Shown piece by piece: positions 16,587 through 17,245 of a stretch of DNA of 64,000 nucleotides (the first letter of the stretch is position 1; each line of letters opens with the position of its first letter). The position numbers and the translations under genes are program-made. The stretch spans positions 1 through 64,000 of the IMG/VR virus record IMGVR_UViG_3300044213_000170. One strand, 5' to 3'. A model generated the notes under the pieces. That model saw only the letters and a program-made list of their open reading frames with translations. It was not told the DNA's origin and made no database searches. The DNA comes from a virus.

Positions 16587-16946
16587 ATGAGTAATGATCT
16601 AGTAGAAATAGTCAATAAGTATGGATTTCCGGTCATTGCCGCCGGCGGGTTAGGTTATTTTGTCTACTATATTTGGAAATGGGTAACCACAGAAATCAAA
16701 CCAGTAATAGGACAAGCCAATGGAACTCTCATCGCTCTTATTGACCGAATTCGTATGCTCGATAATGATCTTATACGTCTTAACCAAAAAGTAGAAACCG
16801 TAATGGAACTACGCGGTAAGAGTATTGAATTTGAACGTATTAAAGCTGAACAAGAAATTAACAAAGCTGCCGCGGCGGAACAACAAATCGGCAGACATAG
16901 AAAAGCTACTAAAGCCGAAATTCGAAGTTCAGCAGGCGACGATTAA
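16587..16946 (+). CDS. TM plus coiled-coil protein
   Basis: YGFPVIAAGGLGYFV helix; LIDRIRMLDNDLIRL coiled coil. Confidence 0.7.
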   Translation: MSNDLVEIVNKYGFPVIAAGGLGYFVYYIWKWVTTEIKPVIGQANGTLIALIDRIRMLDNDLIRLNQKVETVMELRGKSIEFERIKAEQEINKAAAAEQQIGRHRKATKAEIRSSAGDD

Positions 16947-17245
16947 TTATTAATTCTTGCTAAAATTTCGTCGTAAAAGGTGTCCATTTCGCCACCGAAT
17001 TTTCCTTTTAATTCTTCACCTAAGAATTTGCAAAGAGTAGTATTATTTCCGGTATACGCTGCAATAAACGCCTTATGTAGATCTTTAAGGCGATCTAAAT
17101 CATTGAGATCAACCAATGGTGTATTTTCTAAGACACAATATGCAGTGATCGTTTTATCATCACCCACACTAAAAGTTTCTAGTTCAAGTACTATGTAATT
17201 TTCTTGAATTTGTTTTAAATTTTCATCACCCAATATGATATTCAT
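16943..17245 (-). CDS. Stand-alone homolog of the adenylate cyclase C-terminal tail
   Basis: Aligns by eye over its full length to the last ~120 aa of 8727..10799. Confidence 0.7.
   Translation of the reverse strand: MNIILGDENLKQIQENYIVLELETFSVGDDKTITAYCVLENTPLVDLNDLDRLKDLHKAFIAAYTGNNTTLCKFLGEELKGKFGGEMDTFYDEILARINN

What the first reader, a model, noticed from the sequence alone, without database searches (positions are those of the whole stretch)
16943..17245. Free-standing, non-catalytic copy of the cyclase C-terminal tail: possible decoy regulator
The 100-aa ORF aligns end to end with the cyclase tail. NIILGDENLKQIQENYIVLELETFSV matches LIVLGPVTAERVGDEFFTIELDCIAV; ITAYCVL matches VTIYTVL; HKAFIAAY matches HEEMLASY; LKGKFGGEMDTFYDEILARI matches LIGEFDGQLDNYYSLWLERI. 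It lacks the metal-binding Asp residues, the N..SR motif and the KGK motif. Class III cyclases work as dimers, so a tail-only paralog could inhibit the enzyme, chaperone it or titrate a tail-binding partner (inference).
Basis: partly seen in the sequence, partly recalled or inferred. Interest (0 to 1): 0.72.

Follow-up and report, generated by a model that had tools for sequence, protein, structure and literature searches.

The report
Free-standing cyclase-tail paralog in jumbo phages
A 100-residue phage gene is a real, conserved, non-catalytic copy of the last piece of the phage's own adenylate cyclase, but it also persists in complete phage genomes with no cyclase, so it is an independent small protein and not a dedicated cyclase decoy.

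Summary
ORF 16943-17245(-) is intact and homologous to residues 572-669 of the CHASE2 class III adenylate cyclase at 8727-10799(-): BLASTP E 8e-8, profile-profile E 6.5e-13, and the same strand-helix-strand-strand plus three-helix topology.

It belongs to an unannotated, apparently phage-only family. The family has at least 331 clusters at 50% identity, its members are 95-130 aa, and it is under purifying selection. It forms one clade (100/100) apart from all cyclase tails.

Alphaproteobacterial cyclases, including S. meliloti CyaK, carry the same tail. The tail is therefore ancestral and the small gene is derived, most likely from one partial duplication at the border of the curli (T8SS)-FecR-cyclase cassette.

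The "decoy of the phage's own cyclase" reading is only partly supported:
- Three 97-100% complete ~350-kb genomes keep the gene but have no cyclase and no csgG.
- Five cyclase-bearing genomes that are at least 92% complete lack it, as do Melnitz and HTVC008M.
- Only 4 of 80 cyclase loci have it nearby.

In this window it is the last gene of a ClpS-exonuclease-GGACT operon, separate from the cassette.

My best reading is an exapted, acidic, TPR-like binding module. Its partner is unknown. The scan had noted it only on this same window.

The parts
16943..17245 (-). ORF100: free-standing 100-aa paralog of the cyclase C-terminal module (strand-helix-strand-strand followed by three helices)
   Evidence: The ORF is listed. 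Homology is shown. The AF2 model has pLDDT 89 and pTM 0.81.
8727..10799 (-). Parent-type gene: CHASE2 + class III adenylate cyclase, 690 aa, with an ~85-aa C-terminal tail
   Evidence: Pfam gives CHASE2 at residues 19-326 and Guanylate_cyc at 425-606. Catalytic residues D433, K475, D479, D547, N556 and R560 are present.
8793..9086 (-). Segment of the cyclase gene (residues 572-669) that is homologous to ORF100
   Evidence: The AF2 model of the cyclase C-terminal 300 aa shows the same order of secondary-structure elements in this segment.
17226..17675 (-). Gamma-glutamyl cyclotransferase-like gene. Its last 20 nt overlap the ORF100 start. It is present between the exonuclease and ORF100 in only 12 of 80 related loci.
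17672..18205 (-). Rv2179c-like 3'-5' exonuclease, found upstream of the ORF100 homolog in all 80 related loci
   Evidence: Pfam E 1e-32. Synteny is shown.
18206..18520 (-). ClpS-like gene, first gene of the tightly packed ClpS-exonuclease-GGACT-ORF100 run. 'ClpS' is my reading of the translation; no family search was run on this ORF.
   Evidence: Gene coordinates abut or overlap. Synteny is shown.
18562..18590 (-). Sigma-70-like promoter match (TTGACA, 17 nt, TAAAAT, with TG) in the Hsp20-ClpS gap. It is a candidate promoter of the operon that ends with ORF100.
   Evidence: This is a consensus match only, and the number of such matches in the region is not above chance.
16285..16946 (+). Two paralogous phrog_18771 membrane/coiled-coil genes on the opposite strand. 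They converge on ORF100, with overlapping stop codons, and separate it from the cassette in this window.
   Evidence: Their position and orientation vary among related loci.
8727..16271 (-). Curli (T8SS)-FecR-cyclase cassette: DUF3307-like gene, csgF, csgG, curlin, FecR, curlin, a small secreted ORF and the cyclase. A T4-late-like TATAAATA box lies at 16264-16271.
   Evidence: The cassette is described for pelagiphages in PMC9599517 and PMC7029224.

Best explanation
ORF100 is a member of a previously unannotated, phage-restricted family of small acidic proteins. The family arose once by partial duplication of the 3' end of a CHASE2 class III adenylate cyclase gene. The copied piece is the last strand-helix-strand-strand of the catalytic fold plus the helical tail.

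The likeliest origin is a duplication/deletion event at the border of the curli-FecR-cyclase cassette in a lineage of ~350-kb phages. That would leave a cyclase 3' remnant directly upstream of csgF, which is where the gene sits in about half of the related loci (inference).

The remnant then diverged quickly. It lost the KGK hairpin, gained two conserved cysteines and became acidic. It has since been held under purifying selection as an autonomous, compactly folding, non-catalytic domain.

It survives in complete genomes that have lost, or never had, the cassette. Most cyclase-bearing phages do without it. It therefore does not work as an obligate partner of the phage's own cyclase.

Mechanism (inferred, about 0.3): it acts as a stand-alone protein-binding module with a TPR-like three-helix face. 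In this window it is expressed as the last gene of the ClpS-exonuclease operon. It would engage a host factor, possibly the same partner that cyclase tails of this type bind, or a host cyclase of the CyaK/CHASE2 type. This is the mode of action of a 'microProtein'.

Shown: homology, direction of descent, single origin, selection, fold, and independence from the cyclase.
Inferred: the duplication scenario, expression timing, and binding function.
For: Homology.

Fold:
- AF2 model with pLDDT 89: strands 2-5, 18-27 and 31-39, helices 10-14, 50-65, 69-79 and 88-99.
- The cyclase model has the same element order in its last ~110 residues.
- In BFVD, the best structural matches outside the family are a 671-aa COG4252/CHASE2 protein (TMq 0.70, 98 columns) and a guanylate-cyclase-domain protein (TMq 0.74, 101 columns).
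- ESM Atlas gives TM 0.80 onto the viral CHASE2-cyclase cluster.

Direction of descent:
- Ensifer, Shinella and S. meliloti CyaK cyclases align through the tail at 33-46% identity.
- The Ensifer tail ends with the same NWxGVFRAxSK as the phage enzyme.
- The free family is phage-only. There are 129 IMG/VR loci. The only hit among 185,579 species genomes is a 9-kb contig with phage synteny.

Single origin: the free family is one group at 100/100 support on a 2.05 substitutions/site stem, and the long forms that keep the LPxxWxG end are basal.

Selection.

Independence from the cyclase.

Synteny: the exonuclease lies upstream in 80 of 80 loci, and csgF/csgG lie directly downstream in about 42 of 80.

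Charge shift: median pI 4.8 for the free family against 7.9 for the cyclase tails.

TPR-like helical part: VIA Z 6-7.6 to many TPR units, Atlas TM 0.79 to bacterial CHASE2-cyclase-Sel1 proteins, and weak TPR Pfam hits. These are leads only.
Against: - There is no direct evidence for any binding partner.
- The residues shared by both families (G6, L20, L22, V38, H57, L79, G81, F83, G85, D88, F/Y90, Y91, R97) may only maintain the fold. They need not mark a common ligand site.
- The gene abuts the cassette in about half of the loci, so a lineage-specific link to the cyclase or to curli secretion is not excluded.
- The genome sets used for presence/absence were each picked through one marker, so they show that both single states exist but do not measure association.
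- Promoter assignments are consensus matches at chance frequency.
- The TPR resemblance is below the level that separates homology from a common helical arrangement.
- The tandem-duplication origin is a scenario that fits the gene order. It is not demonstrated.
Confidence: 0.5

Rival explanations
1. One reading: a decoy or regulator of the phage's own cyclase. The tail-only paralog would bind the cyclase, or compete for the partner of its tail, and so tune cAMP production by the curli-FecR-cyclase cassette.
For: - It is a true paralog of the tail that keeps the tail's conserved signature.
- It lies directly upstream of csgF in about 42 of 80 related loci, and a cyclase is visible within 10 kb in 21 of 80.
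- Every full-length cyclase next to it keeps its own tail, so the two forms coexist. This is not a gene fission.
Against: - Three 97-100% complete genomes have the gene but no PF00211 and no CsgG.
- Five cyclase-bearing records that are at least 92% complete lack it, as do Melnitz and HTVC008M.
- Only 4 of 80 cyclase loci have it nearby.
- In this window it sits in a different, convergently separated transcription unit with a different promoter type.
- A long stem branch and a charge shift point to a changed function.
Confidence: 0.15
2. The protein works with the operon it sits in, not with cAMP signalling. It would be an accessory subunit, inhibitor or specificity factor of the Rv2179c-like exonuclease, or a ClpS-linked adaptor or substrate. 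The cyclase ancestry would then be only historical.
For: - The exonuclease lies upstream in all 80 loci and usually abuts the gene, with an offset of about 530 nt for a 531-nt exonuclease gene.
- ClpS and Hsp20 are also present in all 80 loci.
- In this window the genes overlap, which fits translational coupling.
- The pairing persists in the genomes that have no cassette.
Against: - Gene order is broadly conserved in this lineage, so adjacency may be inherited and not functional.
- Insertions of 0.4-3 kb between the exonuclease and the gene occur in more than 20 loci, for example L028, L039 and L042, and the 12 loci with the GGACT insert.
- Related exonucleases are widespread in 457 cultured-phage records, yet the small protein has no match in any cultured-phage record.
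Confidence: 0.2
3. It is a non-functional remnant (pseudogene fragment) of a duplicated cyclase gene, or an ORF whose similarity to the cyclase is due to chance.
For: It is short, covers only the 3' end of a larger gene, and has no Pfam, PHROG or NCBIfam family.
Against: - The family has 331 representative clusters.
- 79 of 81 copies are intact, with a start and a single stop.
- dN/dS is well below 1.
- There are 16 invariant columns across homologs that are 40-51% identical.
- The fold prediction is confident.
- The profile-profile E-value is 6.5e-13.
Confidence: 0.02

Closest known systems
C-terminal module of CHASE2 class III adenylate cyclases of Alphaproteobacteria and of the phage T8SS cassette (for example S. 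meliloti CyaK, the Ensifer sp. PDNC004 cyclase, and the Melnitz EXVC044M gp104 cyclase)
   Same: - Homologous over the whole ORF.
- Same element order: strand-helix-strand-strand followed by three helices.
- Shared signature: H, then about 21 residues, then LxGxFxGxxDx[FY]Y, then five residues, then R.
   Different: - It is free-standing, with no CHASE2 domain, no membrane segments and no catalytic core.
- The KGK hairpin is lost.
- C37 and C72 are conserved only in the free family.
- It is acidic.
- This member lacks the final LPxxWxG...K segment.
Class III nucleotidyl cyclase catalytic domain (Pfam PF00211 Guanylate_cyc)
   Same: The N-terminal ~37 residues correspond to the last strand-helix-strand-strand of that fold. 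There is a weak Foldseek match to P. aeruginosa CyaB (3r5g): 41 columns at 2.3 A.
   Different: No HMM match. All metal-binding, substrate-specifying and transition-state residues lie outside the copied segment. It cannot be an enzyme of this class.
Phage curli/T8SS-FecR-adenylate cyclase cassette of pelagiphages (PMC9599517, PMC7029224)
   Same: This window carries the cassette in the described order. In about half of the related loci the ORF sits at the cassette's csgF border.
   Different: My term searches of the two papers returned passages that list csgF, csgG, curlin, FecR, AC and 'HK' genes and none that mention a cyclase-tail paralog. I did not read either paper in full. The ORF is absent from HTVC008M and Melnitz and from most cassette-bearing contigs.
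MicroProteins: small single-domain paralogs of multidomain proteins that act by sequestering the parent or its partners, such as plant LITTLE ZIPPER and animal Id proteins. I name this concept from general knowledge, not from a tool result.
   Same: A small protein derived from the interaction-prone end of a larger signalling protein, without the active part.
   Different: No interaction has been shown here. The distribution argues that the parent cyclase is not the required target.
TPR/Sel1-type helical repeat units, which occur C-terminal to the cyclase domain in bacterial CHASE2-cyclase-Sel1 proteins
   Same: Residues 43-100 superimpose on single TPR units at Z 6-7.6. The Atlas structure match of the cyclase tail to CHASE2-cyclase-Sel1 proteins has TM 0.79.
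   Different: There is no significant sequence match to TPR or Sel1 models (best E 0.059). The Z scores are within the range expected for any three-helix arrangement.

Membership tests
Class III nucleotidyl cyclase (PF00211) | Match to the family HMM above the gathering score | tested here: not met
   No Pfam hit for the ORF at E up to 1. None of the 22 homologs hits PF00211 at E up to 10.
Class III nucleotidyl cyclase (PF00211) | Two metal-binding Asp, substrate-specifying Lys/Asp, and transition-state Asn/Arg | tested here: not met
   In the parent cyclase these are D433, D479, K475, D547, N556 and R560. The ORF aligns only from residue 572 onward.
Class III nucleotidyl cyclase (PF00211) | KGK hairpin lysines | tested here: not met
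   K597, G598 and K599 are 100% conserved in 16 cyclases. The aligned columns in 166 free-standing proteins are variable or gapped.
Cyclase C-terminal tail module (CHASE2-AC type) | Significant sequence homology to the tail segment | tested here: met
   BLASTP E 8e-8. hhalign E 6.5e-13. Reciprocal profile searches agree.
Cyclase C-terminal tail module (CHASE2-AC type) | Same fold and topology | tested here: met
   AF2 models. BFVD matches to a CHASE2 protein and a cyclase protein at TMq 0.70-0.74 over 98-101 columns. Atlas TM 0.80. All structures compared are predictions.
Cyclase C-terminal tail module (CHASE2-AC type) | Terminal LPxxWxG...K segment | tested here: not met
   It is absent from this 100-aa member. 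It is present in the 115-125-aa relatives shown and in 34 of 166 representatives by a motif count.
Cyclase C-terminal tail module (CHASE2-AC type) | Covalent attachment to a cyclase catalytic domain | tested here: not met
   The ORF is free-standing. The top 150 family representatives are 82-144 aa, apart from one 253-aa fusion, P0160.
TPR / Sel1 repeat | Match to repeat HMMs, or a clear structural match standing above background | tested here: inconclusive
   Best Pfam TPR E-value is 0.059, in one of 14 tails. VIA Z is at most 7.6, below the level that is informative for helical bundles.
MicroProtein / dominant-negative paralog (functional class) | Small single-domain derivative of a larger multidomain protein | tested here: met
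MicroProtein / dominant-negative paralog (functional class) | Binds the parent protein or its partners and alters their activity | not testable with these tools
   No multimer prediction or experiment was available. The co-occurrence data argue against the phage's own cyclase as an obligate target.

The most novel reading that the evidence does not exclude
The family is a phage 'microProtein' that hijacks host cyclic-nucleotide signalling. It would be made early from the ClpS-exonuclease operon. It would mimic the conserved tail of host CHASE2/CyaK-type adenylate cyclases and sequester the tail's cellular partner, or cap the host enzymes. Host cAMP signalling would then be uncoupled, whether or not the phage brings its own cyclase. 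This would be the first example of an enzyme-fragment decoy born inside a phage auxiliary gene cassette and later freed from it.
Probability: 0.15. Interest if true: 0.7.

Novelty: new variant of a known kind. Interest (0 to 1): 0.42.

Why it matters
It documents the birth of a gene from the 3' end of an enzyme gene inside a phage auxiliary cassette. The fragment was then exapted and survived after the cassette was lost.

It defines a sizeable, unannotated phage protein family of at least 331 clusters at 50% identity, with a confident fold and a clear ancestry. That ancestry gives a concrete starting point for finding its partner.

It draws attention to the conserved but unstudied C-terminal tail of CHASE2 adenylate cyclases such as S. 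meliloti CyaK. I found no function assigned to that tail in the papers I searched.

It is also a caution for annotation. Such genes could be labelled cyclase fragments or pseudogenes, and gene-neighbourhood reasoning ("next to the cyclase cassette, therefore a cyclase regulator") fails here once complete genomes are compared.

Tried and rejected
- **The look-up of encoding contigs:** I took gene contexts from IMG/VR loci instead.
- **tblastn of the ORF against 50,697 cultured/GenBank phage records:** no match.
- **Family libraries:** Pfam, PHROGs and NCBIfam gave no family for the ORF.
- **The search for homologous proteins, 'longer' mode:** no fused forms found, but the tool warns that this is weak evidence. 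The region search with the cyclase tail returned only 7 close phage-type cyclases.
- **Foldseek against PDB:** nothing significant. VIA-align gave only generic three-helix/TPR matches.
- **Gene fission (a tail-less cyclase plus a separate tail):** rejected, because every full-length cyclase next to the gene keeps its own tail.
- **The cyclase acquired the tail by fusing with an ORF100-like gene:** rejected. Bacterial cyclases already have the tail, and the copied segment starts inside the catalytic fold.
- **A bacterial origin for the free-standing form:** rejected. The single 'Fischerella MAG' hit is a phage contig with the same synteny.
- **Exonuclease in HTVC008M and Melnitz:** no exonuclease homolog was found in either phage, so they are not useful for testing the exonuclease link.
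- **Not possible here:** multimer structure prediction, and superposition of my two models, because no coordinates were available.

Full report
**What is there.**
The window is the first 64 kb of a 145.4-kb IMG/VR virus record that CheckV rates 42% complete. That implies a genome of roughly 350 kb.

The ORF at 16943-17245(-) is real: ATG start, 100 codons, one stop. It has a CHASE2 domain (residues 19-326), a class III cyclase domain (425-606) and about 85 further residues. Its catalytic residues are all present (D433, K475, D479, D547, N556, R560, K597/K599), so it reads as an adenylate cyclase.

The cyclase closes a csgF-csgG-curlin-FecR-curlin-small ORF-cyclase run. This run is the phage T8SS cassette known from HTVC008M, Melnitz and uncultured pelagiphages (PMC9599517, PMC7029224).

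**Is the similarity more than chance?**
Yes.
- BLASTP aligns ORF residues 3-98 with cyclase residues 572-669 at E 8e-8.
- A six-frame search of the whole record returns only the ORF itself and that cyclase segment.
- With profiles the signal grows. 22 free-standing homologs (A1) against 14 phage cyclase C-termini (A2) give 97.9% probability and E 6.5e-13 over 95 columns.
- The tail profile retrieves the ORF and its homologs in four genomes at E 2e-7 to 2e-11.
- The ORF-family profile retrieves cyclase tails (open frames of 673-703 aa) in seven genomes at E down to 4e-14.

Structure predictions agree.
- The ORF model (pLDDT 89, pTM 0.81) is strand-helix-strand-strand followed by three helices.
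- The cyclase C-terminal model shows the same order of elements in its well-predicted last ~110 residues.
- In BFVD, the best matches outside the family are a 671-aa COG4252/CHASE2 protein and a guanylate-cyclase-domain protein. They cover 98-101 columns at TMq 0.70-0.74.
- The ESM Atlas gives TM 0.80 onto the viral CHASE2-cyclase cluster.

Two corrections to the description are needed. The first third of the ORF corresponds to the final strands of the catalytic fold, not only to the tail. The ORF also ends 21 residues before the cyclase does.

**The ORF belongs to a large free-standing family.**
- The word-indexed search found 22 clusters of 100-105 aa at 40-51% identity. They share 16 invariant columns, including LELETF, CV, H57 and GKFxG..D.FY.
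- The exhaustive profile search found 331 representatives at 50% clustering (238 at E up to 1e-10). The top 150 are all 82-144 aa except one 253-aa fusion.
- IMG/VR holds at least 129 loci.
- Among 185,579 species genomes the only hit is a 9-kb contig binned as Fischerella. It carries the same phage synteny, so the family is effectively phage-only.
- No Pfam, PHROG or NCBIfam model covers it, and no cultured phage in INPHARED encodes it.
- The longer members (115-125 aa) that I inspected keep the LPxxW[DN]G end of the cyclase tail. By a motif count, 34 of 166 representatives have it.

**It is not a decaying fragment.**
Of 81 copies extracted, 79 are intact. The two exceptions are a start offset and a contig end. 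Nei-Gojobori dN/dS is below 0.6 in all 248 pairs with usable dS, and is 0.02-0.3 for the closest pairs. These pairs are not independent.

**Direction and number of origins.**
The window cyclase aligns through its tail with alphaproteobacterial enzymes: Ensifer sp. over residues 381-690 at 45.5% identity, S. meliloti CyaK over 395-675 at 46%, and Shinella over 202-690. The Ensifer protein ends with the same NWxGVFRAxSK as the phage enzyme. CyaK and a Ruegeria cyclase are each preceded by a FecR-domain gene, as in the phage cassette.

The tail is therefore an old feature of this cyclase family. The copied segment begins inside the catalytic fold. The small gene is the derived form.

In a maximum-likelihood tree, 35 free-standing representatives form one group (100/100) on a long stem of 2.05 substitutions per site, apart from all phage and bacterial tails. 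The long forms are basal. This fits one origin, a burst of change, and then constraint.

The changes are these:
- loss of the invariant KGK hairpin;
- two cysteines (C37 and C72) conserved only in the free family;
- a shift from near-neutral tails (median pI 7.9) to acidic proteins (median pI 4.8).

Positions conserved in both groups are G6, L20, L22, V38, H57, L79, G81, F83, G85, D88, F/Y90, Y91 and R97.

**Gene neighbourhood.**
The order in all 80 related loci is orf539 - S21 - Hsp20 - ClpS - Rv2179c-like exonuclease - (GGACT in 12 loci) - ORF100.
- The exonuclease is upstream in 80 of 80 loci and usually abuts the gene.
- csgF/csgG follow directly in about 42 of 80.
- A cyclase is visible within the 10-kb flank in 21 of 80.
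- Every full-length cyclase beside it keeps its own tail, so this is paralogy and not a split gene.

The position directly upstream of csgF is what a tandem duplication of the cassette, followed by deletion of all but the 3' end of the first copy, would leave. This is my inference for the origin.

In this window the gene overlaps the GGACT stop by 20 nt and ends a packed ClpS-exonuclease-GGACT-ORF100 run. That run lies behind an 11/12 sigma-70-like match with a TG extension at 18590-18562.

The cassette is separated from the gene by two convergent phrog_18771 genes. It is preceded by a T4-late-like TATAAATA at 16264-16271. These signals are consensus matches only.

**Does it go with the cyclase?**
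No.
- Three records of 339-355 kb rated 97-100% complete, one with terminal repeats, carry the gene but have no PF00211 match and no CsgG anywhere.
- Of the 80 best cyclase loci among at least 524 in IMG/VR, only 4 have a free copy within 10 kb.
- Whole-record searches show no free copy in five cyclase-bearing records that are at least 92% complete (236, 328, 155, 155 and 168 kb). One record of 337 kb has both, and a 357-kb record also has both.
- Melnitz has a tailed cyclase and no free copy. HTVC008M has a tail-less 611-aa cyclase and no free copy.

These sets were chosen through one marker each, so they do not measure association. They do show that each gene commonly exists without the other.

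**What it most likely does.**
It cannot be an enzyme. It is a compact, acidic, autonomously folding module. Its helical half resembles single TPR/Sel1 units (leads only), which is a typical protein-binding surface.

The best-supported statement is that it is an exapted derivative of the cyclase tail that now acts independently of the phage's own cyclase. I put about 0.3 on the specific mechanism: a stand-alone binder of a host factor, possibly the partner of CyaK-type tails.

The rivals are:
- a lineage-specific modulator of the phage cyclase (0.15);
- a partner of the adjacent exonuclease/ClpS operon (0.2);
- a functionless remnant (0.02).

**Novelty.**
My term searches of the two papers that describe the phage T8SS cassette returned passages that list csgF, csgG, curlin, FecR, AC and 'HK' genes and none that mention this paralog. 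My term search of the S. meliloti paper returned nothing on the cyclase tail. I did not read these papers in full.

The family is new as an annotated entity, but its kind is familiar: a non-catalytic domain fragment turned into a small protein. I found no note on other DNA.

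Noticed in passing
window 18536-18590 (-): The Hsp20-ClpS gap holds a near-consensus sigma-70-like promoter (TTGACA, 17 nt, TAAAAT, with TG). A 10-bp-stem hairpin that the scan scores as terminator-like follows immediately. This is an odd arrangement of promoter then hairpin in front of ClpS. The hairpin might be a leader structure and not a terminator.
   Followed up: no
window 16264-16271 (-): A T4-late-type TATAAATA box lies 6 nt upstream of the DUF3307-like membrane gene (15890-16258) that heads the curli-FecR-cyclase cassette. 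This suggests late expression of the cassette, in contrast to the sigma-70-like signal before the ClpS-exonuclease-ORF100 run. The box count in the window is not above chance (8 found, 10.3 expected).
   Followed up: partly
window 16285-16946 (+); loci L012, L023, L053, L070, L097, L104 and others: The two paralogous phrog_18771 genes are probably the 'HK' genes of PMC9599517. Their place and orientation change between phages. They lie between ORF100 and csgF on the same strand, downstream of the cyclase on the opposite strand, or, as here, inverted between ORF100 and the cassette. They behave as a movable pair at the cassette borders.
   Followed up: partly
L087 (S. meliloti pSymB) 1-2325; L089 (Ruegeria plasmid) 32-3148: In Alphaproteobacteria, the CHASE2 cyclases closest to the phage enzyme (CyaK and a Ruegeria homolog) are each directly preceded by a FecR-domain gene. 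The FecR-cyclase pair of the phage cassette is therefore an inherited bacterial two-gene unit.
   Followed up: partly
G000 (whole record); G003, G008, G010, G014, G020: The window's record is rated 42% complete at 145 kb. Its syntenic relatives are 337-357 kb, some with terminal repeats. The phage therefore belongs to an uncultured ~350-kb jumbo lineage that shares only the T8SS cassette with the ~145-kb HTVC008M/Melnitz phages.
   Followed up: partly
window 18206-19649 (-): A run of host-like proteostasis and translation genes is conserved in essentially all related loci: ribosomal protein S21 (19407-19649), Hsp20 (18603-19046) and ClpS (18206-18520). These names are my reading of the translations; no family search was run on them.
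   Followed up: no
ORF100 residues C37, H57 and C72 (window 16943-17245): The two cysteines are conserved only in the free-standing family (86% and 77% of representatives). H57 is invariant there and is shared with the cyclase tails. These residues may form a metal site or a redox-sensitive pair gained after the duplication. I could not check their geometry because no model coordinates were available.
   Followed up: no
P0160 (253 aa): One family representative has its first ~80 residues fused to a C-terminal part that looks like a nucleotide-sugar epimerase. This may be a frameshift or assembly chimera, or a rare fusion.
   Followed up: no
L044/L045 (IMG/VR 3300002144 contigs): Here the cassette is rearranged. 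The cyclase and FecR are inverted upstream of the exonuclease-ORF100-csgF-csgG run, and ClpS/Hsp20 are inverted downstream. Inversions around ORF100 therefore occur in this lineage.
   Followed up: no
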